Positions 1 to 42,100 of a DNA stretch of 63,775 nt are shown here, one piece after another. The notes beneath the pieces were generated by a model, which was given only the letters and a program-made list of their open reading frames with translations, did not search any database and was not told the DNA's origin. Made by a program: the position numbers and the translations under genes. Each line of letters starts with the position of its first letter. The first letter of the stretch is position 1. This DNA is from a virus (lineage: Duplodnaviria; Caudoviricetes), in IMG/VR virus record IMGVR_UViG_3300037515_000973, positions 1 to 63,775 of that record. One strand, written 5' to 3'.

Positions 1-520
1 TCGCCGTGATACCCGTCAGCGCAACGCTACTCGGCTCGGCAGTAAGGACGCGCTGAGACAGTAGATCAGCAGTGACACCTGTCAGGGCAACGCTGCCTGG
101 CTCGGCAGGCAACACATGGTGAGACAGGGAATCAGCCGCGACGCCCGTTAGCGCATAGCTGCTTGGCTCCACATTGAGGACACGTTGAAGCAGTGGGTCA
201 GTCGCTCTGCCTGTCAGTGCATAGCTGCCTGGCTCAGCGGTCAACTCAAAAAAGCCCAAGACGTTATAGGTCAACGTCGCCGTGATACCCGTCAGCGCAA
301 CGCTACTCGGCTCGGCAGTAAGGACGCGCTGGAATAGAGAATCAGCCGCTATGCCCGTCGAGGCAGCACTGCCCGGCTCGGCACTGAGGACGCGCTGAGA
401 CAGTGGATCAGCGGCGACACCCGTTAGCGCAATGTTACTTGGCTCGGCACTGAGGACGCGTTGAGAGAGCGGATCAATCGCAACACCCGTCAGTGCAACG
501 CTGCCGGGCTCGGCCGTCAG
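1..520. repeat. Coding tandem repeat, 66-bp units in a 276-bp higher-order period
   Basis: ctcggcag at 35 and 101 (66 bp apart); tcgccgtgatacccgtcagc at 1 and 277 (276 bp apart). Confidence 0.95.
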
Positions 521-13329: not shown

Positions 13330-13610
13330 GTGGTTGTTCCTCCTCTGCCCCCGCTGTGGGCGGGGGTGTGACGCGTGCGCTTCAATCAGGAAAAGACGTT
13401 AGCTTAACCAAACTGAATTGCGCCCTTTTAAGGCTGACAGAGGGCGCAGAGGCCGTCCTGTAGGAGCCAGAGCAACACTCGATCTCGCTTGGTGGCATAT
13501 CGTCGCATACCCAAGGTGAATGAAAAGAATGCCTCTGCATTGCCTCTGGGACCTCTGGTCCTCAGGACCAGAGGTCCGGCACTGATTGCCAGAGGCAATG
13601 TCTCCTTCGC

Positions 13611-17878: not shown

Positions 17879-17922
17879 CCAATTATTGCCACAAATTGCA
17901 AGACATTCGTGGCAATAATTGG
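17879..17922. promoter_or_regulatory. Inverted-repeat operator in the divergent lysis/lysogeny switch
   Basis: Perfect 14-bp inverted repeat ccaattattgccac / gtggcaataattgg. Confidence 0.6.
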
Positions 17923-17936
17923 GAGGAATAATTCTT

Positions 17937-18404
17937 ATGGAAGATCGAGCGGAAAAGAAGGAACGCTTACGCGCATTAATGAAAGGGCAGCCACGCGGCA
18001 CACAATCCCAACTGGCGCGGTATGTGGGGGTATCTCTCGGGCAGGTGCAAAACTGGTTGAAGGACCGGTATCTCTGGACAACGCCCCTGCGTGAGGAAAA
18101 AATCTGGGCCTTTTTCGCGCAGGCTGCTCACGGTGTGCCGCCGCTGCCCGAGAGAAAAGAAGCACGCGCGATGCCGGTCCACGCGGACCCGGCGGCCGAA
18201 GCCCATCAGCTCCTGGATATCGTGCTGGTGCACCGTGAGCGTGACGTACGTGAGCTGATCGTGCAGCAGCTGCGGCTCTACGTCCGGTGGCATATGCAGC
18301 TGCTGAGCGCCGACGAGCAGGACTTTTTTGGCGCCCCGGTAGGGGCGCCGTTCCGTCTGCCGGAAGCACGCCTGCAGGAGAAGGAACACCGGACCAGAGC
18401 CTAA
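17937..18404 (+). CDS. Repressor-like XRE HTH protein
   Basis: TQSQLARYVGVSLGQVQNWL; divergent from the cro-like gene and upstream of the integrase. Confidence 0.7.
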   Translation: MEDRAEKKERLRALMKGQPRGTQSQLARYVGVSLGQVQNWLKDRYLWTTPLREEKIWAFFAQAAHGVPPLPERKEARAMPVHADPAAEAHQLLDIVLVHRERDVRELIVQQLRLYVRWHMQLLSADEQDFFGAPVGAPFRLPEARLQEKEHRTRA

Positions 18405-18426: not shown

Positions 18427-19500
18427 ATGGCTTTACGCAAACGCCTCAATAAAAACGGTACTATCACCTGGGTGGTCCGTCTCAAGCATCACGGCCGGGA
18501 AATCGTCCAAAGCATTGGGCCGTCCAAGCGGGAAGCCCAGCTCGTCGAAGGCAAACTCAAAGCCGAACTGCGCGAAGGCAAATTTTTTGACATTCAGCCT
18601 GGCCAGCGCTGGACCTACACACAACTCCTGGATCGCTATCTCGCATATGGCACCGTGGCCAAGCGGCCCGGCACCTCGGCACTCGACCATGTCGTGGCCA
18701 AACAGCTGCGCCCGGTGTTTGGATCGCTCCGTCTCCCCGAGGTCACCAAGCGCAAAGTGCTCAGCTATCTAGAGGATAAGCTGCACGCCGGTCTCGCGCC
18801 GTCCACGGTGAATTATCACTTGGCGATTTTACGACATTCCTTCAGCATGGCCGTGCAGTGGGAATTGCTGCGCGACAATCCGTTAGCAGGGGTGAAGCTG
18901 CCCGCCAAAATCGAAAACGAGCGCGTCCGCTATCTGCTGCCGGACGAATACACGCGCCTGCTCAGCGTCTGCAATCCGATGTGGCAGCGCCTGATCACGC
19001 TCGCGGTCCATACCGGGCTCCGGAAAGGCCAGCTCTTGCACCTGCGCTGGGACCGGATCGACCTTACGCACAACTTGTTAGTCCTCCCGCCTGACCCCGG
19101 CTCGAAAAAAAAACGCTCTCAGATTGTCGAACTCAATAGTGTCGCCAGGGCCGTCTTGGTTGACATCCAGGCCGAGCAGGCCCGGGCCGGGCTCCAGACG
19201 CTCTGGTGCTTTTTCAATCCACGGACCGGGGAGGCCTATCGCAGAGATGCGGATAGCGCGTGGTATACCGCGCTGCGGAAAGCTGGCTTGACGGACTTTC
19301 ACTTTCACGATTTGCGACACACGATGGCGACGTGGCTCAGGATGAGCGGGGCAGATCTCCTGACAATTAAAGAAGCGCTCGGTCATGCTGATCTGAAAAT
19401 GACCCAGCGCTACGCTCACATAACTCCTCTCTACCGGCGAGCGGCCATGGAAAAACTGGTTGACATGAGCAGGGGCAAAGACCCAGACGCGGCGTTGTAG
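18427..19500 (+). CDS. int: Tyrosine integrase
   Basis: HTGLRKG, FHDLRHT, LGHADLKMTQRYAH catalytic motifs. Confidence 0.95.
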   Translation: MALRKRLNKNGTITWVVRLKHHGREIVQSIGPSKREAQLVEGKLKAELREGKFFDIQPGQRWTYTQLLDRYLAYGTVAKRPGTSALDHVVAKQLRPVFGSLRLPEVTKRKVLSYLEDKLHAGLAPSTVNYHLAILRHSFSMAVQWELLRDNPLAGVKLPAKIENERVRYLLPDEYTRLLSVCNPMWQRLITLAVHTGLRKGQLLHLRWDRIDLTHNLLVLPPDPGSKKKRSQIVELNSVARAVLVDIQAEQARAGLQTLWCFFNPRTGEAYRRDADSAWYTALRKAGLTDFHFHDLRHTMATWLRMSGADLLTIKEALGHADLKMTQRYAHITPLYRRAAMEKLVDMSRGKDPDAAL

Positions 19501-19674: not shown

Positions 19675-19985
19675 CTATGACCACCTTATAACCACCTTTT
19701 CCCCGCACAACCCCCCCATGACCACCCTGAACGAAGCCGACACATACACGCACCCACACGCACCCACACGCACCCACACGCAAGAAAAGAGAGCAAAATC
19801 AGAGGCTTAGAAAGGCGTAGGCGGGCAGAGGCAAGCGGGAAAAAGCACAGATACGCAAGACGCGGGCAGAATCGCACTCTAGAGGTCGCGAGTTCAATTC
19901 TCGCCGGCTCCACTTTAAAATCAACTACTTAGACGATTCGTGGAGGGGCGGTCACGCTCTATGACCACGCCATGACCACCACCAC
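19675..19985 (+). other. attP with core matching the 3' half of tRNA-Ala(CGC) (19868-19912)
   Basis: aga-atCGCac-tct anticodon loop; T-arm gcgag-ttcaatt-ctcgc; acceptor strand cggctcca; arm-type repeats atgaccac at 19677, 19718, 19961, 19973. Confidence 0.85.
19741..19782. repeat. 10-bp tandem repeat (cacccacacg) within the attP arm
   Basis: One degenerate and three perfect copies. Confidence 0.85.
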
Positions 19986-19993
19986 GCGGCGGA

Positions 19994-20344
19994 TCAAGGG
20001 AGATGCACGACCACCACCGCGCGCGCGTAGCCGAGCTCATACGCCGCCACCAAAATGTCTCTGCCCTCGCCCCAGTCTGCGTCTGCCAGATGAGAGAAGG
20101 CGACCATATCCGCGAGCATGCCTCCAAGCCGGAGCATATCTGCTGGCGGGATCGACACCGTGAGCTCCCGCTTGCGCAGCCGCCGCAGGGTGACGGTTGC
20201 TCGATGGGCCTGCCGGTAACGCCGGTCACGGGCATTCCGGCAGGCCCGGCAATACGGCCGCCAGTGTCCCTGGAGCAGGCGGCGGCCGGTATTTTCTGGA
20301 GTTTTTGGTCGGCCACAGCAACGAAAGAGGGACTCTTTTTTCAC
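19994..20344 (-). CDS. Small Cys-rich (zinc-ribbon-like) protein, last gene of the csf operon
   Basis: GTG start; RCCG...YCRAC. Confidence 0.5.
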   Translation of the reverse strand: MKKESLFRCCGRPKTPENTGRRLLQGHWRPYCRACRNARDRRYRQAHRATVTLRRLRKRELTVSIPPADMLRLGGMLADMVAFSHLADADWGEGRDILVAAYELGYARAVVVVHLP

Positions 20345-20351
20345 GGTTTTC

Positions 20352-21029
20352 TCACCCCATGATGACGGGTGGGAGCGCACACGGCACCTGCTGTTTGGGA
20401 TTGTGGTAGGGCGGCCGGATCGCGTAGCGCGGGCCGTGTGCCGCTGGGACCGCCCGCATCAATGCGCCCTGCGGTCCCGTCACACTCCAATCATTTTCAC
20501 ACGGCGTGACCTCCCAGCTGAGCACGGCCCCATAGCCCTGACTCGTTTTTTTGCCCAGGAACGGGACAAAGCGGAGCAGATCGACCAGCGGCTGCTGCAC
20601 GCCCATCACATACCACGTGACGGACAAGGCGGCAAAACCAAACACGGGCATGCGGTACGCTTTATATTTGCCGGACGCGGGATCGACGCGTTTTGTGTGC
20701 GGGTCTAGCAGCCCCGTGGCGATGCTCAGATCCAGCCGCTTACTCCAGGCATCCTGGATCGGCACGGTATGCGCCGGCCACTGCGCCCAGGACGCCGCAT
20801 AGTACCACTCCCGCGTGTGGCTCTGGATCTGCTTGAGGGGCAAGTGCGGCAGGTCGCTAAATCGCCGGCCAGGTGGCGCCACGGAGGCATTCGGCAGCGA
20901 CATCTCCTCGGCGCCCCAGTGCGCCCGCACATGCACGGAGTACAGGATTCCGTCGATCGGGAGATAGCCGTCGCACAGGATGGGGCATTGGAGGTAAGCC
21001 CGGATACGGAGAGGGGAGAAGGTCGGCAT
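20352..21029 (-). CDS. csf3: Type IV Cas5-family subunit, copy 2
   Basis: PLRIRAYL...LPIDGIL; YAAS; GKYKAYRMP; FLGKKTSQGYG Gly-rich loop; MRAVP; RPPY. Confidence 0.85.
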   Translation of the reverse strand: MPTFSPLRIRAYLQCPILCDGYLPIDGILYSVHVRAHWGAEEMSLPNASVAPPGRRFSDLPHLPLKQIQSHTREWYYAASWAQWPAHTVPIQDAWSKRLDLSIATGLLDPHTKRVDPASGKYKAYRMPVFGFAALSVTWYVMGVQQPLVDLLRFVPFLGKKTSQGYGAVLSWEVTPCENDWSVTGPQGALMRAVPAAHGPRYAIRPPYHNPKQQVPCALPPVIMG

Positions 21030-21032
21030 CCA

Positions 21033-21692
21033 TCACCCCTCTGGCACCAGACACCCCCATGTATTCGCGGGGTCCCAGTAGCTCGGGCGGATGCCCATCC
21101 GGATGCCGGTGTTGTCGTCGGTAGGGATATTGCGCATGAGCTGATGGTTTGGTCCCCAGATGCTCCAGTCCTCCTGGACCTGCTCGACGTGCCACCGCAG
21201 GATAGACCCTTCCCCTTGCGCCGTATTCTTGCCAATGAATGGAGACACCGTCAGTAGACGCTGTATTTCTTCTCCATCTCCGACGGCATACCAATAAATA
21301 CTGAGTGCATGACGAGAGAATGTCGGCATCCGGTACGCTTTGTATTTCAGCGCATCCGGGCGGATTTTCTGTTGTCGGTTTTTGGGATCAAGCAGTCCGA
21401 TTGCACGCGGGAGGTTGAATCGTTTATGCCAGTATGTCGTATACGGCACGGTATGCGCCGGCCACTGCGCCCAGGACGCCGCATAGTACCAGAGTGGCCC
21501 AGGATTTAGGACCGCCAAGGGAGGCGGGACAGGATCTAATTGGAGGACGGCGATAGGGGCCGTCACGGCTTCTACGCCGTAGGCGTCCAGTATCGCTGCC
21601 TTTGAGATAATCTGGTCGAAAGGTAAGCTGGGCTCACAGACGATGCCGCACTGGAGAGAGGCGGTGATTTTCAAGGGGACGAACTTAGACAC
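21033..21692 (-). CDS. csf3: Type IV Cas5-family subunit, copy 1
   Basis: PLKITASL...LPFDQII; YYAAS; KYKAYRMP; FIGKNTAQGEG; MRNIP; RPSYW. Confidence 0.8.
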   Translation of the reverse strand: MSKFVPLKITASLQCGIVCEPSLPFDQIISKAAILDAYGVEAVTAPIAVLQLDPVPPPLAVLNPGPLWYYAASWAQWPAHTVPYTTYWHKRFNLPRAIGLLDPKNRQQKIRPDALKYKAYRMPTFSRHALSIYWYAVGDGEEIQRLLTVSPFIGKNTAQGEGSILRWHVEQVQEDWSIWGPNHQLMRNIPTDDNTGIRMGIRPSYWDPANTWGCLVPEG

Positions 21693-22017
21693 CGGTGAAA
21701 TCCCACTCCTCGTCGTGCAGAATCCCTGCGCCGCCCGCCGTCGACACAAATTCAAACCCGTCTGGGCCCACCTCTGTGAACCCGTGGGGCATGCCGGCGG
21801 GTTTAAAAATACACTCACCAGGGAACACGCGGCGTCCCGCCTCTTTCCCCAGCGCCAACGCAGAGCCTGACTTGATATCCATGCCCGAGGCGACGAGATG
21901 GGTATGGAGCGGAATTTCTCCGCCCGGCGCGACCCGGACAAGGAGGGCGTGCTCCCCCTTGAGGGGCGGCAGCGGCTCGACCGTGACACCCACACAGCCA
22001 GGTACATCGTATTGCAT
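21685..22017 (-). CDS. Cupin-domain protein
   Basis: PGGEIPLHTH ... PGECIFKPAGMPHGF cupin motifs. Confidence 0.8.
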   Translation of the reverse strand: MQYDVPGCVGVTVEPLPPLKGEHALLVRVAPGGEIPLHTHLVASGMDIKSGSALALGKEAGRRVFPGECIFKPAGMPHGFTEVGPDGFEFVSTAGGAGILHDEEWDFTGV

Positions 22018-22026
22018 AATAACCTC

Positions 22027-22749
22027 CTAGGTGAACGCCGCGATATGCGGGTAGTGGGTTTGCAAATGCCGGAATGCCTCCGGGGCGATTTGTCGAATCT
22101 GCGCAATCCGGCCGTAGCGCCGGGAGGTCCCAAAGTGGTCCCCAAAGGGCATGACGTTTGTCGTCCGTGAGCGCGCCTTGGTCCCCGCTGCCGGGTGGTC
22201 GTAGCTGGCGAGGTACGGCAAGTCATGGGCGACCGTATACGCCCAGACATGCTGCCAGGTCCAATAGCCCAGGGGAAAGGCCCGGACACTGCCACGGTTC
22301 GGTCCCGATTGATAGCGATGGACCAGGCCATACTTGGCAATCGCGATGCCCCGTGTCCGCCGGTTTTCTTCCGCGCGGATGCCAATCAGGGCAACCGGAT
22401 AGTCCTGCCAGAGCGCGAGGTCTTTGACCACAGTGGGGATCGTTTTTCCTTCCTCGATCATGATCTCATGATAGACCGTCGGGAATTGGGCGCAATAGCC
22501 GTGCTGGACCTCAGTGTAGTTGTCGAGCATGTCTTGGAGCGGGGTACGGAGATGAAAGACAGGAATGTCAGGGGCGATCGTTTGGACCAGGTGGAGCAGG
22601 GCCACACTATCTTTTCCCCAGCTGCACGCGACATGACTCGCGCCCAGGGTCAGCGCCTCACGGATCACTGCCAGTGCTTGCTCCTCTTTCCTCCGCTGTC
22701 CGGTGGTCCGCGCATATGCCGCAAAGGCTTTCCGCTCGAGGGGGCTCAC
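22027..22749 (-). CDS. PAPS-reductase (CysH)-like protein of type IV-B systems
   Basis: ACSWGKDS PP-loop; IGIRAEEN; PLGYWTWQHVWAY...LPY...YD. Confidence 0.85.
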   Translation of the reverse strand: MSPLERKAFAAYARTTGQRRKEEQALAVIREALTLGASHVACSWGKDSVALLHLVQTIAPDIPVFHLRTPLQDMLDNYTEVQHGYCAQFPTVYHEIMIEEGKTIPTVVKDLALWQDYPVALIGIRAEENRRTRGIAIAKYGLVHRYQSGPNRGSVRAFPLGYWTWQHVWAYTVAHDLPYLASYDHPAAGTKARSRTTNVMPFGDHFGTSRRYGRIAQIRQIAPEAFRHLQTHYPHIAAFT

Positions 22750-23795
22750 GCCATGGCCTCCAGGGCGTCCTTGATCTCTGCGGCTTTGTTTTGCAGGTGC
22801 TCTTGATACTGCGTGCCGAGCGCAAACGAGACGGCTTTGCCCTCCGGATGTAACCGCGAATCGATCGACAGCCATTTGTCAAAGGTGATCGCAATCTCGC
22901 CCAGCCCGATGTTCGACTTGCCGCCGACATACGGCATGCGGGAGAACTGGACCAGCGCCGTGAGGAACGCCTCAAACTCCAAGTTGGTCACGTCGTCGAG
23001 CACGATTTTCCAGTAGAAGGGCGTGCCCGCCCCCAGGGTCTCGACAAAATACCGCATCTGCTGCGGGGCCCGGTCTCCTCCCGGGGGCGTATCGTCGGGG
23101 ATCTCTTCCTGCAGCAAACGGTCTTGCTGGGGGCGCTCCAGTAGAAATTGCTGCCTGCTGGCCCGTGCGATCAGCGGCCGGTAGTGTTCGTTTTTGGCGT
23201 CGTCTGTGCGCGTATACATCTCCTCTTGCAAATACTCCCAGATCGACGGTGCCTGTGCGATCTGGTGTGCCTCCGGGATCACATGCAGGGTCTCGGCACA
23301 GATCGGGATGAGTTTGCCCATCTTGAGCTTGCCGGGCAAAATCATGGAGCCAAGTGCGCCGCCGAAGATCCCGACAAGGGGAATGAGTGCACGTAGGCGC
23401 CGGGCATAGTCGATATCGATTGCTTTGCTTTTCGGGGGCGGGAGTGCAGGTTTGTCCTGCATCTTGAGTTTCCCCTTCCCCTCCTCGCGGGTTTTCTTGC
23501 TTTCCAACGCCCCCCCAGAGAACAGAAAATAAAAGGCCGAGAGTGGCAGACCCTGGACAGTGCCGGTTTCCTCGACGACGCCATAGCCGAGCTGGCGACA
23601 CAGGTGGAGCATCGCCCGGTCGCGCAACACGCCCCGCATGGCGTTGCCACTGATCACCGGGATCTCTTCGACGGAAAAGTCCGGCTGGACGAATTTCTCA
23701 CGTCTCAGCTTGCTGTTGATCCCAAAACTTTGCCCCCCATTATGCGAGATCGAGCTCAGGCTCGTCACCCGGCCCTCGAGCAAGTACATCTGCAT
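22746..23795 (-). CDS. csf2: Type IV Cas7-family backbone subunit
   Basis: SSISH...IPVISGNAMRGVLRD; FLFSGG; PLVGIFGG; YTRTDD; QQMRYFVETL; VGGKSNIGLG. Confidence 0.9.
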   Translation of the reverse strand: MQMYLLEGRVTSLSSISHNGGQSFGINSKLRREKFVQPDFSVEEIPVISGNAMRGVLRDRAMLHLCRQLGYGVVEETGTVQGLPLSAFYFLFSGGALESKKTREEGKGKLKMQDKPALPPPKSKAIDIDYARRLRALIPLVGIFGGALGSMILPGKLKMGKLIPICAETLHVIPEAHQIAQAPSIWEYLQEEMYTRTDDAKNEHYRPLIARASRQQFLLERPQQDRLLQEEIPDDTPPGGDRAPQQMRYFVETLGAGTPFYWKIVLDDVTNLEFEAFLTALVQFSRMPYVGGKSNIGLGEIAITFDKWLSIDSRLHPEGKAVSFALGTQYQEHLQNKAAEIKDALEAMA

Positions 23796-24156
23796 CGGCT
23801 TTCCCCTTTTTCCCTTTCTGTTGCTGGGCCTCGTAGCGGTCGTGCCGCTCCTCGTTCGCCACGCGGACGAGCAGGACGAGGAGCGCCGTTTCTTCACGGA
23901 GCGATTTGAGCAGCGTCTTATCCTCGCCACAATTGATGACGGCTGCCACGCGCGCCACATATTCTGTACGGAGTGTGATATTGAGCCGCTGCGTGATTTT
24001 TTCGAGGAACTTGCTCAACTGCGCGGTATACGCGGCCGAGCGAAGATTGTCCTCGAATTGATTCCAGACTGAATACGAGTATTGTCTTTTATAATCAGTC
24101 GAAACCCCATCCCATAGAGGAATAAGAAGGTCTTGAACTAAAATTTCGTCATTCAT
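23740..24156 (-). CDS. Small alpha-helical subunit (Cas11-like)
   Basis: Helical 138 aa protein between csf1 and csf2, the usual type IV-B position. Confidence 0.65.
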   Translation of the reverse strand: MNDEILVQDLLIPLWDGVSTDYKRQYSYSVWNQFEDNLRSAAYTAQLSKFLEKITQRLNITLRTEYVARVAAVINCGEDKTLLKSLREETALLVLLVRVANEERHDRYEAQQQKGKKGKADADVLARGPGDEPELDLA

Positions 24157-24161
24157 GTTAC

Positions 24162-24827
24162 TTACCCCATTTTCTCCTTTTCAGGAGCCTCGTTTTTTTG
24201 GAGCAGAAAAAGGGCAAGCCTGAACGGGAGACTGCCCCGCCACCGTCTGAGGCTGGGTTCAGATGCCTGAAAGAGCGCGACGCCGACCTTGCGCAGCGCA
24301 AACTGGGAATACCGGCCGCTCTCGATCTCCGCTTTGCTCGCGCCCGCCTCGTAGAGCGGGGACGCCAGGCGGAGCATCTCCGTCAGCTGATCTGGACACG
24401 GCAGGAGCGTCTGCTCTTCGAATTGCCACCACCCAGGCCGGACCTGGAAGAGGAGATGCTTTTGCCCACTCTCGGCAATGCAGGCAAAGGCGGGCGTGCG
24501 CAGCAACAGCGCGAGCATGCCGCGTTTGTTACCTTTGCTGAGCGGATGCCAGACGCCATCGCACACAAAGTGCGAATAGTTGCGCATCTTCTGGGGGATG
24601 TCTTTGCCGACGCGCGCTTGCAGCAGCGTGCTCGCCTCGGCGCAGGCAAACTGACAGGCGTGACAGACAATCTCCCCCGGCCACAGTTTGTCGTGATCGG
24701 TAAAGGTTGGCTTGAGCCAGTCCTGTGCCGGAAGGCCACGGCCGGATTGGCTGCAAAGACGACACGCGCCCGGGAGAGAGCCTGCCTGGGGTGGTGAGCC
24801 GGCAGCGTGATAGAGGAGCGCCGTCAC
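24162..24827 (-). CDS. csf1: Type IV large subunit (Cas8-like)
   Basis: CRLC...PTFTDHD...VCHAC zinc finger; SGQKHLLF. Confidence 0.8.
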   Translation of the reverse strand: MTALLYHAAGSPPQAGSLPGACRLCSQSGRGLPAQDWLKPTFTDHDKLWPGEIVCHACQFACAEASTLLQARVGKDIPQKMRNYSHFVCDGVWHPLSKGNKRGMLALLLRTPAFACIAESGQKHLLFQVRPGWWQFEEQTLLPCPDQLTEMLRLASPLYEAGASKAEIESGRYSQFALRKVGVALFQASEPSLRRWRGSLPFRLALFLLQKNEAPEKEKMG

Positions 24828-25054
24828 GACGCCTGGCCCTTCTGCTGGGCGTCCCAGGCGTCCAACGCCGCCCGGACGATCGCACTCGCATTGGGCTCAC
24901 GGGCTAGTCTCTCGATCTGGTCCAGGCGGAGCCGGAAGTTTCTCGGCATCAGTCGCTCGCTCGGGTCTTTCCACTGTCCCCCCGGTCGGCGTTTGTGGGG
25001 CCTCTGACCCTGATGGCCAGAGGCCCATGGGGAGGTCGCGTCCTGTTTTGGCAT
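24824..25054 (-). CDS. Ribbon-helix-helix-like regulator leading the csf operon
   Basis: NFRL..DQIERL...NASAIVRAALD. Confidence 0.55.
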   Translation of the reverse strand: MPKQDATSPWASGHQGQRPHKRRPGGQWKDPSERLMPRNFRLRLDQIERLAREPNASAIVRAALDAWDAQQKGQAS

Positions 25055-25100
25055 GCCGTAAGAGTATCAAAAATATCTTTGATTGTCTATACAATGGCGC

Positions 25101-25129
25101 TTGACAAGCCCATCCATTGTGTATACATT
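25101..25129 (+). promoter_or_regulatory. Sigma70-type promoter for the HNH/early genes
   Basis: TTGACA-N17-TACATT. Confidence 0.6.
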
Positions 25130-25136
25130 AGGTCAT

Positions 25137-25559
25137 ATGGAGACAACACACACACAGACAAACACCGATTTACGGAGCCGTGGCAAGTGGGCAGGCATGA
25201 ACTGGATCAGAAAAGAAAAGCGCCTGTCGATCTATTTGAGGGACGGCTTGGCCTGCGTCTGGTGCGGTCAGGCCGTGGAAGACGGGATCAAGCTCACCCT
25301 CGATCATCTGATCCCGCATAGCCAGGGCGGATCTAACCAGGCCGACAACCTCGTGACAAGTTGCCACATGTGCAATTCGTCACGAGGAGCGCGCGCCTGG
25401 AAAATCTTTGCAGATGTGGTCGCCACCTACCGCAATCACGGGCTCACTACTAAGCAACTCACGCGCTATATCACGGCTACGGTCAAGCGCCCACTCGACA
25501 TCCCGGCTGCCAAGGCCCTGATCGCTGCCCGTGGTTTTGTCCCGGCCTGCACAAAATAA
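25137..25559 (+). CDS. HNH endonuclease
   Basis: RDGLACVWCG...LTLDHLIPHSQGGSNQADNLVTSCHMCNSSRG. Confidence 0.9.
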   Translation: METTHTQTNTDLRSRGKWAGMNWIRKEKRLSIYLRDGLACVWCGQAVEDGIKLTLDHLIPHSQGGSNQADNLVTSCHMCNSSRGARAWKIFADVVATYRNHGLTTKQLTRYITATVKRPLDIPAAKALIAARGFVPACTK

Positions 25560-27137: not shown

Positions 27138-30100
27138 ATGGAAGCACAGCGACGGTATCAACGCGACTTTGAGACGATTGACGATTTGGACGATTTCGTT
27201 TTGTTCCAGCAACAGGAAAACGGGCTCACATTTCATTGGGATAGAGTCAGAAAAACGGCCTGGATTATCACCGACGAAGAAACCGAGGCCAGCCTCTACG
27301 AGGAGGAAATTCATCAGGACGACGCCTAACTCATCCAGCAGCCCCCGCTGCGGCGGGGCCACACACAGGAGCAGGAGCATGCAGATTGTTATTTTGCAAG
27401 AAACGGGCCAGATTGATATCCCCGCCACCCGTGCAGCCTACCTGGCGCACGGTCAACCGCGCAGGCGCCTGCTCGCGCACCTGCTGGCCAAAATCCGGGC
27501 GGTGTGTCCGGATCTGGATCAAGAGGAGGTCAAGACACAGACCCGCCTGGCAGCCAACGCGATCTTTGTGGCGACGCACGAACGGCCGTTACCCCTCAGG
27601 CACAAAGGCTTGCGCCTGCGCTAACATCTCACCCCCGCTCCGGCGGGGCTTACCAGAGGAGAACAAAAAATGGAAATCTACACGATCGCGTATGACGGCA
27701 TCTTGCTTTGGGCAGGTCCGGCGTGCAACGCAGCGCATGCCCTCAATATACATGCGCGCGACATTGGCTATGGCACATTCCGTGACTTAGCTCTCCTGGC
27801 AGAGCCACCCTACGACGCCGACACGACGACGGAAGCAGCGCATCTCGCAGAGGTGCGAAAACGGTATGCTGTGGAAATGAGCAGCCAGCCGTCAGGAGAG
27901 GAACAATGAAACAACAGTCTATGAGACGACATTTAAATTTCTCCGATAAACTTGACGTCATCTATGCGGCCTCTATCCTCGGCCGCGCCTTAAAGAAACA
28001 ACAAGACCGATCACACGATCCTTGCTGGAGTGTGTATTTCCAGCACCTCCAGAACGCGCTGGAGGCGCTGGATCAGGTCTGGCCGCACGACGACGCAGAA
28101 CCCGAGTAACCCAGCCGCGTCTGACGTGACGCAGTCAGGTCATGCGGTACGGCTTCTCAGGACGGACACGGGCGACGGATTCCAACAGGGCACACTCCAG
28201 GAGCCGGAGCGATCGATCACTGGAGACGCGGAGTTGGTGCAACCCCGGAACGGCAGTTCCCCGCCCTGAGGCTCTGCCTCTCAGAGGCGGAGCCTCAAAG
28301 GAGTAACGAAAGTGGAAAATCTCACGATCACAGGTCACCTTTTTGAAATGCCGACCGATGGGGGATATGTCTATGAGGTCTTGACCTCAGGACAGAGACG
28401 GCAGATATGCGAGGGAGGTGGACTGATGGGGAGTACACTCAGGGCCACGCCAGAGACTTTTAAAGTGATCTGCCAGAAGTGGCTGAGACAGCGCAATAGA
28501 CTATAAGAGTACACCATCCACCCCCCGCCCCCTTCGAGGCGGGCACAGGAGTAGATCATGACGATGCTACAAATAAAAAGCCCGAGCGGGTTCTACGTCA
28601 CCGCTGTGCGCGGTGACGGCACGGGAGATCTCAAGCACTTTTGGCTGCTCAAGAGTGCGTTGGGATGGCTTATTACGCAGCATGCCGTCCACGCGATTCT
28701 GAGCGTGGACGGCTACGCCAACGTATCGATCTAAAAAAAAATGAAAGCAGAACATATCGAATTACAATTTTCTCTAGCGATTGACAACAACCATGTGATC
28801 GGGAGCTATACCCCAGGGATGGGGTATAGCACGGTCCTCACCATCGGGGGAGAGGCGATGCACGATGATGGAGAGGGGGAGCTCTCCGCCCCCATCCCCC
28901 AGAGGGGGGAGACCTTTGATTTGGCTCTCCCCAGTGGGTGTTTCCAGGGGGCAGTCATCTACCGCTCTCACCTATCCCCTCTTCTCTACAAGGTCACGGT
29001 CCGTGGGGTATGGTCGGGCACATACGGCGGCCTAGTCGGTGGGCTGAGTGCCTTCGGTGCGTTTGAGCTGCTCTCTTCAAATTTTATCCTCACCACCTCC
29101 TGGAGTGGCCACCCGATCACATGGCGCCAGTATCAGGCCCTCCGCGCCATCCGTAATAATTTTTTGGATGGGGAGGGAACAGCCGCCGTGGCCGCCATGG
29201 AAAAAAAAGAAAGATATTGGAAGGAGCAGGCAGATGAGATACACGGACAAGGAGATGGAGCAGGCCCTGTGTCGGTGGAGACAGAAAAATGTTGACGTAC
29301 GCGATTTACGCATGGCTCTGATGGCCTTATCGCTCTATGCCACGGCGGAGGAACTCATAGCCATTTTCCCAGGAACACACCATGACCCCCCCACACGGAA
29401 GCAGCTGCAAAGTGAGTTTCAAAATGTTTAATAAAGACAAGAGAATCGGCCGCTATCTGGTTGATATTGGCATTATCATAGGCATCGCTCTGTTGTTCGG
29501 GGGATGTGCCCATCATCCCCTGTTTGCCAACTATCAACCGCCTCCTTACCGGCACTCCGAATACGATTACTATCAGACACGACGACACCAAGAGCGACAA
29601 ACAGACTTACTCAAAACGTTGAGGCGCCAACAAAAATATGTGGATTTTCGGCGGGGGATATTGCAGCGCCAACACCTGCGGAACTCATTGAAGAAACCCT
29701 ATACTCACGTACCGAGGAGAAGATAATGACTGAGTGGATGCTCGAATACCTCAATACTGACCTTGTCATTACGGGCCCTGGGCAACTCCAAATCGTGCTG
29801 CAAGAATTTGATCCTGACCGTCTGCGATCGGACCACATTCTGCCCCCGGAGGTGCTGGGCGACTTGCAGCAGGGTGGCTGGTCCTATGAGCTAGAGCCAG
29901 GCGTCACACTCCAGCTCATTTCCACACGAAGCCGGCATCATCCGGGATCTGCACTCCACGTGTTGCATGTGGGCAGGCAGGTCAGTTGGACGCTGCCGGC
30001 TGAATTTGGCGCACAGCTGGGCCGATTAAAAACCTACCCTTGAGTAGCGACCACCATTGAGACTGAAGCACGAGCAGGAGCAGGAGCACAGAAAGGAGAA

Positions 30101-39108: not shown

Positions 39109-42100
39109 TTAGCGGACCTCTAAGTTTTTCTGTCGGCGCCCCAGTTCGTGTATCACTTTATCTGCCAGGGTCCGTTCATTCATCCCAGGCGCCGCGTGAA
39201 TAGTGATATTAATCACGGGAGCAACAGACGATTGTGGCCTGTGTTGTCGCATCTGCGCCGTTTCCGCTGCGGTCCAGATATCGACTTGCTCCCCACGGTG
39301 CGCCAGAATAGGAAGTTCGTTTCGTCGGACCGTCGTATGGAGTCCATGCGCAGCCCCCAAGGGAGCATTCGGGTCGTACCCAGGCGGATTCAAATCCGGC
39401 GGCGCCCAATAGGGATCGCCGCCTGTCGGCACGCCCGCCGGCGTCACGGGGACGAAAACTGGGGGCAGCGCAGGCAAAACGACTGGCGTTGCACCGCCGG
39501 GCGTAAAATATTGATTGAAGAGGCCTTGCATGGTTCTGGTAAAAGCACTCACCCCATTCGCATTCCACCAGGGTTGCCCGTGCGCGGCTTGTTTGAGGGC
39601 ATCGGCCACCAGTGTTTGTAGGAGCGGCGCCACCTTCACGGTAATGGTATCGACCACGCTTTTACCGCTCTCTTTCGTGGCGGCTACCGTGGCCGTAGAC
39701 AGGGTGGCAAGTCGTGCGGCGAACAGTGCGCGTATTTGCGTCAGTTCTCCGGCTAAACTGACATCTAATGCCTGTAATGCTGCCGTCAATGCGTCTTGCT
39801 CCGCTTTGATGATCACCGCAAACGCATCGCGGGTGGCTTTTTCCTCTGCGGCAAACGTCGCATTAATTGCCTCAAGCTTCTGGGTGAGTTCACCCTCATC
39901 TATGGCGGCAACAAGGACCTTCGCTTGCTCGGTCAATGCCTTTTCCAATGCGGTGAGCTGTGCAATCGCGGCTTCTTCAAGGCTTTCTATCGTCGCCTTC
40001 AGGGCGGCTTCTTCTTTGGCAATCGCTTCTGCAAGCGCTTCCTGCGAGGCAATGATATCGGCGCTTAATTTGTCCCGCATTTTTTGCAGCGTTTCTTCAC
40101 TCGTGCCGGCTTTAATGTTCAGTTCTTTTTCGAGTTCTCGGATGTCGTCTAACCGCGTGTTTGTTCCTTTGACGCCTTCTAATTGCCGGAGCGTCTCTTT
40201 CCCTTGCTCTTCGAGTGAGTCAGCCACGGTTTTGACGATGTCGTTGAGGAGCAGCCCCTGCCTCACGCCCTTCGCGGTTTCGCCAAACAGGGCCAGGTTG
40301 AGTTCATTGATGGGGCCGATCAACCCCTCAAACTTCGCAATATCGTCTGCCGTGCCCCGCCCCTCAGTAATCTTTTTGGCCAGCCATGCAAACTGTCCTT
40401 GCAAGCCCCTCAGTTCTGCCAAAGCAGCTTTTTCTAATTCCTTCTTTGTCTGCTCCAGGGCGGCTTCTTCTTTGCCAATCGCCTTCGTCAGCGTCTCTTG
40501 TGAAGCCAACAATTTTATATTCGTTTGGTCACGCAATTGTTCGAGAACCTTCACCGTTGCGCCGGCTTTGAGATTCAATTCTTTTTCGAGTTCCCGAATT
40601 TCGTCCAGTCGCGTGTTCGTGCCTTCTACGCCACCGGTTTGCTTGAGGGTCGTTTTCCCCTGCTTTTCGAGCGAGTTGGCCACCGTCACAATCAGATCAT
40701 TGAGTCGGCCCCCCTGCGCAATGCCTTTGGTCGTACCGGCAAAAAGTTCTTTGTTCACGTCACGAAGAGGAGCAATCAGCGCCTCAAACCGGGCAATATC
40801 CTCTGCCGTTCCCTTCCCCCCGGTAATCTTCTGTGCCAGGGCCGTAATCTCCTTGAGCCCCTGCGCGAATTGTTGCGACCCGGTCAAGGCACTGGTTGCA
40901 CCGAATGTTTTTTCATCAAACAAATTTTCACGCAGGGAGCGCGCGGCCTGAATCTGCTCGTGCGCAGCAGCGCGTTTCTCGTCTATTTCCTGGCGTTGCA
41001 GACCTAAGAGTTTCTCAAGCAATCCCACGCGTTCCGTGAGTCCGTCTGCGATGAGTTGGTGTTCCTCTTGCAGTGCCTGGATGCGGTCTTGCGTGGCGGC
41101 TTCCGCGGCGGCTCGTAATTCACTAAAACTTTTTGTGAGACTCGCCAGTGTTGCGCGCAGGGACTGCGCCGCTTCAATCTGTGCCCGCGCCGCCTCGCGC
41201 TTGGCATCGACTTCTTGTCGCTGCAAGTCGATCAGACGATCAATGGAATTGATCCGGTCTTCGAGGACTTCTTGTTCCAGTTGTTGTTCTTTTTCGAGGG
41301 CTTGAATACGCTCGCGGGACGCCGCTTCCGCTGCTTGCTTTTGTTTATTCAGGAGATTGGTAATCAGCGTAATCCCTTCGGCTTGCAGCTTCTGAAGTTC
41401 TTCTAAGCTTTCCGTCTGCGCAATGTCTGCGAGCAGAGCACTGAAGTCACCTAGGACGCCGAGGAGCGCCTGTTTTGCATTGGCAATGACCGTCGGAATA
41501 TCAGCGAGAAAATCGCGTATTTTTTGCAGACTGGCAATCTGTTCCTCAATCGCTTTGGTCGCGGCTTTGCGTCGTTCCTCAATCGACTTGAGCTCGGCAT
41601 CGCGCTCTTCTTCAATCGCCTTCACGCGGTCCTTTGAGGCGTCTTCCAACGGCTTGCGGGCGTCTTCGCGCATCTTCTCAAAGGCTGCCAAGACTTCGTC
41701 TTGCAATTCCTGCACGGCCTCGAACGTCTGCGCGCCCGCCAGGTCGCCTAAGACTTCGCCGAGCGGGCGCGGGTCATGATCCAGTAATTTTTTGATTTGC
41801 TCGTCCAGCGGCGCCAGCACTTCAGATATGAGTGCCGTGATCCGCGCCGCGAGTTGTGCATTCACCGCATCGTACAAGGTCTGGACATCAACGAGGTCTG
41901 CCACACTCGCCGCTGCGTGATCGATACTTTCATTCGCGGCATTATATTCTTCAATAAGTTGCACAAACCCACTACGCTGACTGTCCAGGCTATGGAGAAA
42001 GTCATTGGCTGGTCGCAGTTGATCTTGAATGGCTTTCGTCATCCGCGCCGCCATATTTTCCGCAAGTTCCGCTAAGGTCTCAAACAGGTCTCGTGCCGCG

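What the first reader, a model, noticed from the sequence alone, without database searches (positions are those of the whole stretch)
19994..25054. Array-less type IV-B Cas operon with two csf3 genes and an embedded cupin
Seen: a tightly coupled operon RHH-csf1-cas11-csf2-cysH-like-cupin-csf3-csf3-Cys-rich ORF. I found no CRISPR array, cas6/csf5, dinG, cas1 or cas2 in this near-complete genome. Established: type IV-B (csf1, cas11, csf2, csf3, cysH-like) usually lacks arrays and its function is unresolved. Unusual here are the duplicated Cas5-type subunit and a cupin between cysH-like and csf3. Inference: two alternative complexes capping different RNAs, coupled to a nucleotide- or sulfur-modifying activity, or sequestration of host crRNAs. 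The dispersed hairpins are speculative candidates for non-array RNA ligands.
Basis: partly seen in the sequence, partly recalled or inferred. Interest (0 to 1): 0.82.

Follow-up and report, generated by a model that had tools for sequence, protein, structure and literature searches.

The report
Phage type IV-B operon, two Cas5
A temperate tailed phage carries a genuine CRISPR-array-less type IV-B Cas operon that unusually holds two different Cas5 (Csf3) genes and a small metal-binding cupin, a rare variant of a known system whose job is still unknown.

Summary
On the minus strand, 25054-19997, nine co-directional genes lie with gaps of at most 9 nt or with overlaps. They are an RHH-like ORF, csf1, cas11, csf2, cysH-like, cupin, csf3a, csf3b and a Zn-ribbon ORF. 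HMMs assign Csf1, Cas11, Csf2 and two full-length Csf3. The record is a 63.8-kb temperate siphovirus, estimated 92% complete. I found no array, Cas6, Cas1 or Csf4/DinG in it.

The tandem csf3 pair is real. Contig depths and two runs from other studies bridge the junction. It is rare: 1 of 111 non-redundant related loci (L109) also has two csf3.

It is not a recent duplication. csf3a belongs to its own lineage (orthologues 51-56% identical). It keeps 35 of 46 conserved positions; csf3b keeps 43. A 48-nt identical tract marks gene conversion.

The cupin is absent from all 111 relatives. It has three close homologues on short contigs that, by matching contig lengths, also hold csf2 or csf3a-type genes. 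This scan has noted cysH-cupin pairs in type IV-B operons of other phages, and phage-borne IV-B cassettes in at least 143 genomes.

Function stays inferred. Verdict: a new variant of a known kind, of moderate interest.

The parts
24827..25054 (-). Small leader ORF, RHH-like (76 aa; possibly 41 aa from ATG 24949). Its stop overlaps the csf1 start.
   Evidence: No family hit. AF2 single-sequence model: residues 1-30 disordered, then an extended stretch, H44-52 and H56-74 at pLDDT about 88. The Atlas holds the 41-aa form, and RHH_1 clusters score 0.88, a lead only. Foldseek found nothing.
24165..24827 (-). csf1 (type IV large subunit, 221 aa)
   Evidence: PADLOC Csf1_0_IV 1.1e-19, residues 4-217 on model 5-224 of 227. 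Median 46% identity to Csf1 in 103 relatives.
23743..24156 (-). cas11 (small subunit, 138 aa)
   Evidence: PADLOC Cas11_1_IV 2.8e-27.
22749..23795 (-). csf2 (Cas7 backbone, 349 aa)
   Evidence: PADLOC Csf2_0_IV 3.8e-69. The family profile's best PDB match is 7jhy, type IV-B Csf2, at 1.1e-30. 813 homologues at E<=1e-5.
22030..22749 (-). cysH-like PP-loop enzyme (CasCysH type, 240 aa)
   Evidence: Pfam PAPS_reduct 9.2e-14. PP-loop SWGKDS is present and there is no Cys in the C-terminal part. At most 35.5% identical to the CysH of relatives, median 26%.
21688..22017 (-). Monocupin with three invariant His (110 aa)
   Evidence: Cupin_2 3.4e-5, below the cut-off. H38, H40 and H78 are invariant in 4 sequences. 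AF2 pLDDT 82, and Foldseek top hits are TM1459, KdgF, DddK and RemF.
21036..21692 (-). csf3a, the divergent Cas5 (219 aa); its start overlaps the cupin stop by 8 nt
   Evidence: PADLOC Csf3_0_IV 5.1e-37, full length. Keeps 35 of 46 conserved columns. Forms a clade with P0132 and P0133 at support 100.
20355..21029 (-). csf3b, the canonical Cas5 (225 aa)
   Evidence: PADLOC Csf3_0_IV 2.4e-43. Keeps 43 of 46 conserved columns. Best identity 50-51%, to L060 and L003, which are also among the nearest Csf2 loci.
19997..20344 (-). Small Zn-ribbon protein (CC-x21-CxxC, 116 aa), last gene of the operon
   Evidence: Six homologues at E<=0.001 among 1.84 billion representatives. The four Cys are invariant in 4 sequences. 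Weak PHROG hits to the zinc-finger part of HNH and endonuclease VII families. Atlas Zn-ribbon and Stc1 leads score under 0.9.
20760..20807 (.). 48-nt tract in csf3b, 100% identical to 21444-21491 in csf3a (gene-conversion tract)
   Evidence: Inside the tract 16 of 16 identical residues use the identical codon. Elsewhere the figure is 35 of 82. In run X1 it forms a separate graph node at twice the flanking depth.
21444..21491 (.). Partner copy of the 48-nt tract, in csf3a
19863..19915 (+). tmRNA/tRNA 3'-end-like fragment (T-arm plus acceptor 3' strand); probable attP core, 80 nt beyond the operon's end
   Evidence: Rfam tmRNA E 5.2e-6, 22.2 bits, below gathering score. ARAGORN finds no complete tRNA or tmRNA. 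The integrase gene 18427-19500 (+) lies just upstream.

Best explanation
SHOWN. This is an intact type IV-B CRISPR-Cas effector operon with no array and no adaptation genes. It is carried as cargo by a temperate siphovirus and sits directly beside the integrase and the probable attP. It would therefore lie at one end of the integrated prophage, which is typical of accessory 'moron' genes.

It encodes the standard set: Csf1, Cas11, Csf2, Csf3b and a PP-loop CysH-like enzyme. It also has three extras: a His-site monocupin, a second and divergent Cas5 (Csf3a) from a different Csf3 lineage, and a small Zn-ribbon protein.

INFERRED (most likely). The stretch cysH-cupin-csf3a occupies the variable accessory slot of this IV-B clade. 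In relatives that slot holds Cas6, a SpoU methyltransferase with a PTP-type phosphatase, ParB_N-like proteins or a second PAPS-reductase.

Csf1, Cas11, Csf2 and Csf3b would build the usual RNA-bound filament. Csf3a has lost about a quarter of the family's conserved positions yet is conserved in its own lineage. It would act as an alternative end subunit. It could nucleate a second population of complexes on a different RNA end, or cap the other end of the filament where Cas6 sits in Cas6-bearing relatives.

The CysH-like enzyme would adenylate a substrate, and the metal cupin would carry out a coupled step on a nucleic acid or nucleotide held by the complex. The biological role would be conflict with other mobile elements or with host defence while the phage is a lysogen.
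For: Family assignments. Phage identity (terminase, portal, major head protein, 2520-aa tape measure). Integrase next to a tmRNA-like 3' fragment. Tight coupling of all nine genes.

The tandem pair is real. In X1 the contig 20778-21473 bridges the junction at the same depth as the flanks, and the shared 48-mer has twice that depth. Runs X3 and X6, from other studies, bridge the junction with no differences.

Two lineages: csf3a+P0132+P0133 at SH-aLRT 100, csf3b in another clade at 97. Conserved columns kept: 35 of 46 against 43 of 46; the median of the single-copy genes is 44 and the minimum 35.

Parallel case L109: csf1-cas11-csf2-csf3-csf3'-csf1'-x-cysH. Its canonical copy keeps 46 of 46 columns and its divergent copy 34 of 46. 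Three lost positions are the same as in csf3a.

Variable slot in relatives: Cas6 in L004, L014 and L019; PTPase plus SpoU in L003; PAPS_reduct-DUF3440 plus a weak ParB_N in L060; a weak ParB_N in L050.

PP-loop SxGKDS in 72 of 73 CysH of relatives. This fits the AMPylation proposal of Taylor et al. 2021 (PMC8175902, section 7 read).

Cupin: H38, H40 and H78 invariant. Cupin homologue P0127 and csf3a-type P0133 are each seen on one Logan contig of 1723 nt. P0128 (cupin) and P0010 (Csf2) are each seen on one JGI contig of 3111 nt.
Against: No experiment or expression data exists; no listed run is on record as RNA. Co-location of the cupin with csf3a-type or csf2 genes on other contigs is inferred only from equal contig lengths and sources.

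Whether those loci also hold a csf3b-type gene is unknown. The cupin fold matches are generic and give no chemistry.

The origin of the pair is unresolved. Smaller trees put a and b as sisters (support 93 and 96). An AU test on the alignment without the conversion tract did not reject sisterhood (p 0.86).

csf3a's 35 of 46 conserved columns equals the lowest value among single-copy relatives, so its divergence alone does not prove a new role.

The solved JS623 IV-B complex bound heterogeneous RNA, and Csf1 and Csf3 were not resolved in it (Taylor 2021). What a IV-B Cas5 contacts is therefore not known.
Confidence: 0.4

Rival explanations
1. Guide-RNA sponge or anti-CRISPR. The Csf complex soaks up host crRNAs or other guide RNAs to protect the phage or prophage. 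The two Cas5 proteins recognise the 5' handles of two different host systems.
For: The hypothesis is in print for IV-B (Pinilla-Redondo 2020, passages; Taylor 2021, section 7). A contig of run X4 carries a 33-nt match to csf3a (21420-21452) flanked on both sides by the same repeat-like sequence. That repeat, with 1-2 mismatches, forms 61-nt-period arrays in 8 of 802 genomes searched. The period suggests type I-E, from my recall of that repeat type. So this phage is targeted by a CRISPR system in nature.
Against: According to Taylor 2021, the JS623 complex did not load co-expressed I-E crRNAs. The same review notes that the sponge idea leaves the conserved CysH-like enzyme unexplained, and here also the cupin. 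No copy of that repeat lies in the window (0 matches at up to 3 mismatches). The host is not identified, and no spacer match was found in six sampled arrays.
Confidence: 0.2
2. csf3a replaces a Cas6-type RNA end-binder or processing subunit. It would act as Cas5d does in type I-C (recalled), so that the complex makes or holds a defined non-array RNA.
For: Three relatives (L004, L014, L019) have a Cas6 gene (PF10040 7.9e-15 for L004; the other two cluster with it) in the stretch between csf2 and csf3 where the window has cupin+csf3a. The window has no Cas6.
Against: No array or mini-array is in the window, and none lies within 7 kb of the Cas6-bearing relatives. No catalytic residues were examined. 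The Cas5d analogy is recalled, not tested.
Confidence: 0.12
3. Redundant leftover. A recombination between two IV-B loci left a surplus Cas5 (csf3a) that is drifting, and the cupin is a passenger gene with no link to the complex.
For: csf3a has lost 11 of 46 conserved positions and has the longer branch. Several of its losses, such as K156N and W161E, are not shared by P0132 and P0133. CysH genes in this clade are clearly exchangeable, since the window's CysH is at most 35.5% identical to any relative's.
Against: The reading frame is intact and full length on the HMM. It is translationally coupled on both sides. 96 columns are invariant across csf3a, P0132 and P0133. The identical sequence occurs in runs from several studies. 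The cupin's three His are conserved at 59-74% overall identity. L109 shows an independent canonical-plus-divergent pair.
Confidence: 0.15
4. Assembly artefact: the tandem csf3 pair was created by misjoining two strains at the shared 48-mer.
For: A perfect 48-nt repeat lies in both genes. Short-read graphs break there, and X1 is split into four pieces at that repeat.
Against: The unique csf3a-to-csf3b junction (21029-21036) is bridged by contigs in X1, X3 and X6 with no differences. The inner piece has the same depth as the flanks and the 48-mer has twice that depth. X1 may be the source sample; X3 and X6 are from other studies. A misjoin at the 48-mer would give one hybrid gene, not two complete genes.
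Confidence: 0.02

Closest known systems
Subtype IV-B CRISPR-Cas of actinobacterial megaplasmids (Mycobacterium sp. JS623 Csf complex, PDB 7JHY; Zhou et al. 2021, abstract seen in a search listing; reviewed in PMC8175902, section 7 read)
   Same: It has csf1, cas11, csf2, csf3 and a cysH-like gene with a PP-loop and no catalytic C-terminal Cys. It lacks an array, Cas6, a helicase and adaptation genes. It sits on a mobile element. The Csf2 profile's best solved match is 7jhy.
   Different: It sits on a tailed temperate phage next to int/attP. It has two Cas5 genes of different lineages, a cupin between cysH and csf3, a leading RHH-like ORF and a trailing Zn-ribbon ORF.
Phage- and virus-borne IV-B cassettes: Fuxivirus of Bathyarchaeia (PMC10848311, passages read); many cassettes noted earlier in this scan (AI notes), some with a cupin after cysH
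   Same: A virus-encoded IV-B with a CysH-like gene and variable extra genes. Earlier notes of this scan report cysH-cupin pairs in at least 6 other genomes.
   Different: Fuxivirus has a mini-array and a single Csf3. None of the notes returned by my look-up for two csf3 or paralogues describes two csf3 genes. The window's cupin and CysH have no sequence look-alike among the scan's windows.
Metagenome locus L109 (unnamed 22-kb contig)
   Same: A IV-B locus with a canonical Csf3 followed by a divergent Csf3. The divergent copies share three lost conserved positions (alignment columns 47, 217 and 288).
   Different: L109's second csf3 comes with a second csf1 carrying an N-terminal HTH-like extension (weak Pfam hits), and it has no cupin. 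The gene order is canonical then divergent, whereas in the window the divergent copy comes first.
Type IV-E Csf3-Csf1 fusions, and type III effector complexes with several RAMP paralogues (recalled; IV-E is also mentioned in PMC7038947 passages)
   Same: In these class 1 complexes the Cas5-type subunit is remodelled or multiplied, which changes the end of the filament.
   Different: Here the two genes are separate and the subtype is otherwise a plain IV-B. No Cas10, DinG or RecD is present.

Membership tests
Subtype IV-B CRISPR-Cas | Csf2 (Cas7) of the type IV / IV-B kind | tested here: met
   PADLOC Csf2_0_IV 3.8e-69. The profile's best PDB hit is the IV-B Csf2 of 7jhy at 1.1e-30, ahead of IV-C Cas7c (2.7e-23) and IV-A Csf2 (about 1e-8). 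NCBIfam csf2 1.2e-17, below its cut-off.
Subtype IV-B CRISPR-Cas | Csf1 large subunit and Cas11 small subunit | tested here: met
   Csf1_0_IV 1.1e-19 and Cas11_1_IV 2.8e-27.
Subtype IV-B CRISPR-Cas | Csf3 (Cas5) | tested here: met
   Two genes, Csf3_0_IV 5.1e-37 and 2.4e-43, both full length. The profile hits solved IV-A Csf3 7xfz_B at 1.6e-9.
Subtype IV-B CRISPR-Cas | Associated cysH-like gene with a PP-loop and no catalytic C-terminal cysteine (CasCysH as described in PMC8175902) | tested here: met
   PAPS_reduct 9.2e-14. The SWGKDS motif is present, and the only Cys residues are at positions 42 and 86 of 240.
Subtype IV-B CRISPR-Cas | No DinG/RecD helicase, no Cas6, no adaptation genes, usually no array | tested here: met
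   No PF10040, PF01867 or TIGR03117 match in the 63.8-kb record at E<=0.01. No array-like repeats. Cas2 and RecD were not searched for separately. The record is estimated 92% complete, so the missing part is untested.
Cupin superfamily (Cupin_2 type monocupin) | Double-stranded beta-helix fold with the two His-containing motifs | tested here: met
   The AF2 model is all-beta, pLDDT 82. Foldseek prob 1.0 and TM about 0.7 to TM1459, KdgF and DddK. The G-x5-H-x-H and G-x5-P-x-G-x2-H patterns are present (pattern recalled; residues seen). Pfam Cupin_2 is below its cut-off. The Glu of motif 1 is absent.
Ribbon-helix-helix (CopG/Arc/MetJ) regulators | N-terminal beta-strand followed by two helices; sequence family match | tested here: inconclusive
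   No Pfam, NCBIfam, PHROG or PDB match. The model shows an extended stretch plus two helices. Foldseek found nothing. Atlas RHH_1 clusters score 0.88, below the 0.9 mark.
HNH / endonuclease VII nucleases (for the Cys-rich ORF) | Catalytic His-Me finger (H-N-H) in addition to the zinc-binding cysteines | tested here: not met
   Only weak PHROG hits (2.8e-4 and 3e-3), restricted to residues 10-59. The invariant residues in 4 homologues are four Cys plus basic residues, with no conserved His-Asn-His set.

The most novel reading that the evidence does not exclude
Type IV-B filaments have exchangeable end modules. A divergent Cas5 comes here with a cupin, and in L109 with a second Csf1. It forms a second 'foot' or an opposite-end cap on the same Cas7-Cas11 backbone. 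One phage operon would then build two kinds of complexes that load different RNAs or dock different enzymes (CysH, cupin). The natural pair csf3a/csf3b would then be a built-in experiment for finding the unknown RNA partner and chemistry of IV-B.
Probability: 0.2. Interest if true: 0.7.

Novelty: new variant of a known kind. Interest (0 to 1): 0.45.

Why it matters
Type IV-B is a CRISPR-Cas subtype whose biological function and complete complex architecture are still described as unclear (PMC13676074, 2026, passage read). In the one solved complex, Csf1 and Csf3 were not resolved (PMC8175902).

A locus that keeps a canonical and a divergent Cas5 side by side gives a simple comparative handle. 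One can tag each Cas5 and ask which RNAs, which large subunit and which enzymes come down with it. The divergent copy is coupled to a metal enzyme and sits next to the CysH-like enzyme. L109 offers a second, independent case.

The survey also shows that in this clade the stretch between csf2 and csf3, around cysH, is a swap site. It holds RNA- and DNA-directed enzymes and Cas6. That supports the idea that IV-B acts by modifying something rather than by cutting.

If the extra genes turn out to be passengers, the locus is just one more phage-borne IV-B cassette, of which this scan already has many.

Tried and rejected
- **Complex prediction, cupin with Csf3a.** No verdict (score 0.00, mark 0.32). 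This is no evidence either way.
- **Fetching related contigs.** Co-location therefore rests on equal contig lengths only.
- **Expression.** No RNA holder was listed for the operon.
- **Cupin relatives.** A scan of viral contigs found none. HMMs of the cupin and of the Cys-rich protein against all ORFs of 136 loci gave no cupin hit and only a chance-level hit (E 0.72) for the Cys-rich protein. A scan of viral contigs for the csf3a type found only 37-38% relatives that were already known.
- **Terminal 66-nt tandem repeats as a CRISPR array.** Rejected. All parts of the unit are similarly conserved and the repeats lie in long ORFs.
- **L010 repeat cluster as an array.** Rejected. It is a set of palindromes at irregular spacing.
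- **Host identification.**
  - The repeat flanking the csf3a match in X4 is found, with 1-2 mismatches, in arrays in 3 of 401 and 5 of 401 genomes of two phyla, so it does not discriminate.
  - It was absent from 5 MAGs that hold related IV-B loci.
  - No spacer match to the window was found in six sampled arrays.
- **Phage CCCCGC...GCGGGG hairpins as copies of that repeat.** Only the stem is shared, 17 of 28 letters at best. Not pursued.
- **Integrase adjacency as a conserved feature.** Only 4 of 111 non-redundant loci have a homologue of this integrase within the flanks.
- **Family-A hairpins as ligands.** The pattern is absent from all 144 loci.
- **Rows dropped.**
  - 25 of 136 loci were set aside as duplicates, judged by a shared central 200-mer.
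  - L001 and L002 are pieces of the window and were excluded.
  - The Csf3 trees used only complete ORFs over 180 aa: 90 rows plus the window's two, then 7 database proteins.
- **Supplements.** Supplementary tables of Pinilla-Redondo 2020 and Shmakov 2018 could list two-csf3 or cupin loci. I could not see them. My statement that neither feature is in print rests only.

Full report
**What is there.**

The window is one IMG/VR virus record of 63,775 bp, classed linear, with a CheckV completeness estimate of 92%. PHROG matches identify a tailed phage:
- large terminase (9e-32)
- portal (3.5e-96)
- major head protein (1.5e-86)
- a 2520-aa tape measure protein
- a tail fibre
- a primase/helicase

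A tyrosine-integrase-sized ORF (18427-19500, +) follows an HTH regulator-like ORF (17919-18404; weak PHROG repressor hits). After it comes a fragment resembling the 3' end of a tmRNA or tRNA, at 19863-19915 (Rfam tmRNA E 5.2e-6, below gathering score). ARAGORN finds no complete gene. I read this fragment as the probable attP core. The phage is therefore temperate, and the operon under study ends 80 nt from that site.

**The operon.**

Nine genes lie on the minus strand, from 25054 down to 19997. All gaps are 9 nt or less, or the genes overlap.

| Gene | Coordinates | Size |
|---|---|---|
| RHH-like ORF | 25054-24827 | 76 aa, or 41 aa from ATG 24949 |
| csf1 | 24827-24165 | 221 aa |
| cas11 | 24156-23743 | 138 aa |
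| csf2 | 23795-22749 | 349 aa |
| cysH-like | 22749-22030 | 240 aa |
| cupin | 22017-21688 | 110 aa |
| csf3a | 21692-21036 | 219 aa |
| csf3b | 21029-20355 | 225 aa |
| Cys-rich ORF | 20344-19997 | 116 aa |

PADLOC models give:

| Protein | Model | E-value |
|---|---|---|
| Csf1 | Csf1_0_IV | 1.1e-19 |
| Cas11 | Cas11_1_IV | 2.8e-27 |
| Csf2 | Csf2_0_IV | 3.8e-69 |
| Csf3a | Csf3_0_IV | 5.1e-37 |
| Csf3b | Csf3_0_IV | 2.4e-43 |

From their names I take these models to derive from CRISPRCasTyper. Both Csf3 proteins align over essentially the whole model.

NCBIfam's csf2 and csf3 equivalogs also hit, but well under their curated cut-offs. These are therefore distant members. A profile of Csf2 relatives finds the type IV-B Csf2 of PDB 7jhy first (1.1e-30). 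IV-C and IV-A proteins come after it.

The cysH-like protein passes Pfam PAPS_reduct (9.2e-14). It carries the PP-loop SWGKDS and has no cysteine in its C-terminal part. These are the features by which Taylor et al. 2021 set CasCysH apart from true CysH (PMC8175902, section 7 read). The same S-x-G-K-D-S motif is present in 72 of 73 CysH-like proteins of related loci.

The window holds no array-like repeats. It gives no match to Cas6, Cas1 or Csf4/DinG models at E<=0.01. All features of subtype IV-B that I could test are met.

**Is the two-csf3 arrangement real?**

The two genes are 44-47% identical in protein, so they cannot be a collapsed or expanded repeat.

They share one 48-nt stretch that is 100% identical (20760-20807 and 21444-21491). 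Short-read graphs break there. In run X1, which may be the source sample, the stretch is its own node at depth 17.5, against 7.8-8.7 for the neighbouring pieces. The piece 20778-21473 spans the csf3a-csf3b junction and has the same depth as the flanks.

Contigs of X3 (21014-21473) and X6 (20928-21078) also bridge the junction with no differences. Both runs come from other studies.

A misjoin at the 48-mer would give one hybrid gene, not two complete ones. I take the tandem arrangement as real.

**How rare is it?**

I used Csf2 to collect related loci:
- 13 and then 42 loci from IMG/VR
- 11 loci from species-representative genomes
- 80 loci, the best of 148, from metagenome contigs

That is 136 loci in all. 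After I set aside 25 that share a central 200-mer with another locus, 111 remain.

By tblastn at E<=1e-2, 101 loci have one csf3 and 9 have none. I take these nine to be truncated contigs; L059 and L065, whose rows I saw, are short ones. One locus, L109, has two.

None of the 111 has a hit to the cupin, the RHH-like ORF or the Cys-rich ORF. HMMs of the cupin and the Cys-rich family also found nothing credible among the ORFs of all 136 loci.

In the papers I searched and read in part, neither a second csf3 nor a cupin is mentioned for type IV. I could not see their supplementary tables.

**What kind of pair is it?**

Among 46 alignment columns conserved in at least 85% of 90 related Csf3 proteins, csf3b keeps 43 and csf3a keeps 35. 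The median for single-copy genes is 44 and the minimum is 35.

In trees built from the loci alone, the two window genes are sisters (SH-aLRT 93 and 96). That result depends partly on the conversion tract. Without those columns a quick tree separates them. An AU test on the same reduced alignment does not reject sisterhood (p 0.86).

The picture changed when database proteins found with csf3a were added:
- P0132 is 56% identical to csf3a and 42% to csf3b.
- P0133 is 51% identical to csf3a and 41% to csf3b.
- Both join csf3a at support 100.
- csf3b falls in a different clade of 24 rows, at support 97.

The a/b split is therefore older than the divergence of csf3a from these orthologues. csf3a represents a maintained lineage, not a fresh copy. 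Whether the window combines two lineages by recombination, or keeps both products of an old duplication that relatives lost reciprocally, cannot be told from these data.

Inside the 48-nt tract, all 16 identical residues use identical codons. Elsewhere the figure is 35 of 82. That is the signature of gene conversion between co-resident copies.

**A parallel case.**

L109 is an unnamed 22-kb metagenome contig. It reads csf1-cas11-csf2-csf3-csf3'-csf1'-x-cysH.
- Its first Csf3 keeps 46 of 46 conserved columns and is 79% identical to the Csf3 of L137.
- Its second Csf3 keeps 34 of 46 and lies on a long branch.
- Three of the positions the second copy lost (alignment columns 47, 217 and 288) are also lost in csf3a.
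- The second csf1 is 46-47% identical to the first and has an N-terminal extension with weak HTH matches.

In class 1 complexes generally, Cas5 pairs with the large subunit at one end of the filament (established knowledge). A second Cas5 travelling with a second Csf1 therefore points to an alternative end module.

**The cupin and the accessory slot.**

The cupin has only three detectable homologues in the 5.8-billion-protein collection, at 74, 72 and 59% identity. H38, H40 and H78 and the surrounding motifs are invariant in all four sequences.

The AlphaFold model (pLDDT 82) matches small metal cupins: TM1459, KdgF, DddK, RemF and phosphomannose isomerase. Foldseek gives probability 1.0 and TM about 0.7. 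This shows a metal-binding monocupin but gives no chemistry.

Two coincidences in contig length suggest where the homologues sit:
- P0127 (cupin) and P0133 (csf3a type) are each recorded on a single Logan contig of 1723 nt.
- P0128 (cupin) and P0010 (Csf2, 61% identical) are each recorded on a single JGI contig of 3111 nt.

I infer that the cupin sits in related IV-B loci next to a csf3a-type gene. I could not fetch those contigs.

In the relatives that I could read, the stretch between csf2 and csf3, around cysH, is variable:
- Cas6 in L004, L014 and L019
- a PTP-type phosphatase plus a SpoU-family methyltransferase in L003, which also has a Vsr/DUF559-like endonuclease between cas11 and csf2
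- a second PAPS-reductase with DUF3440, plus a weak ParB_N protein, in L060
- a weak ParB_N protein in L050
- small HTH-like proteins in five loci

The window's CysH-like protein is an outlier. It is at most 35.5% identical to any relative's (median 26%). By contrast, Csf2, Csf1 and Cas11 reach 63, 57 and 66%.

Earlier notes of this scan report cysH-cupin pairs in IV-B operons of at least 6 other genomes, mostly cyanophages and freshwater phages. One of them reads the pair as a swapped-in two-gene unit (AI notes I did not check). No sequence look-alike of the window's cupin or CysH is among the scan's windows.

These notes moved me. I had first read the cupin as a partner of Csf3a. I now read cysH-cupin(-csf3a) as one cassette in the variable slot.

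**The flanking small genes.**

The Cys-rich ORF is a real but rare protein, with six homologues at E<=0.001 among 1.84 billion representatives. It has four invariant cysteines (CC-x21-CxxC) followed by a basic stretch. Weak PHROG hits touch only the zinc-finger part of HNH and endonuclease VII families. No nuclease motif is conserved, so I call it a Zn-ribbon protein that probably binds nucleic acid.

The leading ORF has the sequence pattern and a predicted strand-helix-helix layout of an RHH repressor, but no family or fold match. The RHH label stays a plausible guess.

**How it most likely works.**

Shown:
- an intact IV-B set on a temperate phage at the prophage end
- two maintained Cas5 lineages
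- a PP-loop enzyme
- a His-site cupin

Inferred:
- The standard subunits assemble on RNA, as in the JS623 complex.
- Csf3a gives a second kind of end. It is either a second foot or a cap at the far end, where Cas6 sits in Cas6-bearing relatives.
- CysH adenylates a substrate, as Taylor et al. proposed, and the cupin performs a coupled metal-dependent step.
- The whole serves the lysogen in conflicts with other mobile elements or with host defence.

I put 0.4 on this composite. The rivals are:

| Rival reading | Confidence |
|---|---|
| Guide-RNA sponge | 0.2 |
| Cas6 substitute | 0.12 |
| Drifting leftover | 0.15 |
| Assembly artefact | 0.02 |

The complex prediction for cupin with Csf3a gave no verdict, and I list it only under things tried.

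**Verdict.**

The architecture is rare, and I did not find it described in the papers searched. The base phenomenon is already known from the literature (PMC7038947, PMC10848311; passages read). It also appears in many earlier notes of this scan, which hold the words IV, csf3, cysH and csf2 in at least 143 genomes. Those notes include operons with cupins.

The new element is the canonical-plus-divergent Cas5 pair, with one independent parallel in L109. It is a new variant of a known kind. Its value is mainly as a natural handle on the unknown end subunits of IV-B complexes.

Noticed in passing
window 21420-21452 (inside csf3a): In run X4 (sediment metagenome) a short contig matches these 33 nt and continues on both sides into the same 26-29-nt sequence. 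With 1-2 mismatches, that sequence forms arrays of up to 73 copies at 61-nt period in 8 of 802 genomes searched. It is therefore a natural CRISPR spacer against this phage's csf3a. The array looks like type I-E, judged by repeat type from recall.
   Followed up: partly
window 19863-19915, with the integrase at 18427-19500: A fragment resembling a tmRNA/tRNA 3' end (T-arm plus acceptor strand) lies just after the integrase gene. It is the probable attP core, so the phage may integrate into ssrA or a tRNA gene.
   Followed up: partly
window 1-519 and 63412-63774: Tandem repeats of 66 nt (22 codons) lie at both ends of the record, inside long minus-strand ORFs that run off the ends. All parts of the unit are conserved, so this is a repetitive protein gene and not a CRISPR array. 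It probably explains why the assembly ends there.
   Followed up: partly
L109:5775-11690: A metagenome IV-B locus with two csf3 and two csf1 genes (csf1-cas11-csf2-csf3-csf3'-csf1'-x-cysH). A DNA methylase-like gene lies upstream and an HTH gene downstream.
   Followed up: partly
L003:6208-9538; L060:1993-4692; L004:8678-9355; L014; L019; L050:9009-9746: Related IV-B operons carry different enzymes around cysH, between csf2 and csf3. L003 has a PTP-type phosphatase plus a SpoU methyltransferase, and a Vsr/DUF559 endonuclease between cas11 and csf2. L060 has PAPS_reduct-DUF3440 plus a weak ParB_N. L004, L014 and L019 have Cas6, with no array within 7 kb. L050 has a weak ParB_N.
   Followed up: partly
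window 24998-25026: A variant of the dispersed 29-nt palindromic 'family A' element forms a 12-bp hairpin. It lies inside the 76-aa leader ORF, or in the 5' leader if the ORF starts at ATG 24949. The region as a whole does not fold better than shuffles (z -1.47). The family-A pattern is absent from all 144 fetched loci.
   Followed up: partly
window 13349-13365, 27343-27358, 27633-27648: Three CCCCGC-loop-GCGGGG hairpins (0.1 expected by chance), each followed within about 25 nt on one strand by an RBS-like GGAG and an ATG. Their stem equals the stem of the CRISPR repeat seen in X4, but the flanks differ, with 17 of 28 letters matching at best.
   Followed up: partly
window 25083-25559 (+): An HNH endonuclease gene (PHROG 2.4e-17) is divergently placed next to the operon's start. 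A sigma-70-like promoter match lies at 25101-25129 on the + strand.
   Followed up: no
window 39109-46671 (-): A very long tape measure protein ORF of 2520 aa.
   Followed up: no
L010:3494-3659: A cluster of five copies of a 28-nt palindrome at irregular spacing, upstream of a related IV-B operon. It looks like an operator cluster, not a CRISPR array.
   Followed up: no
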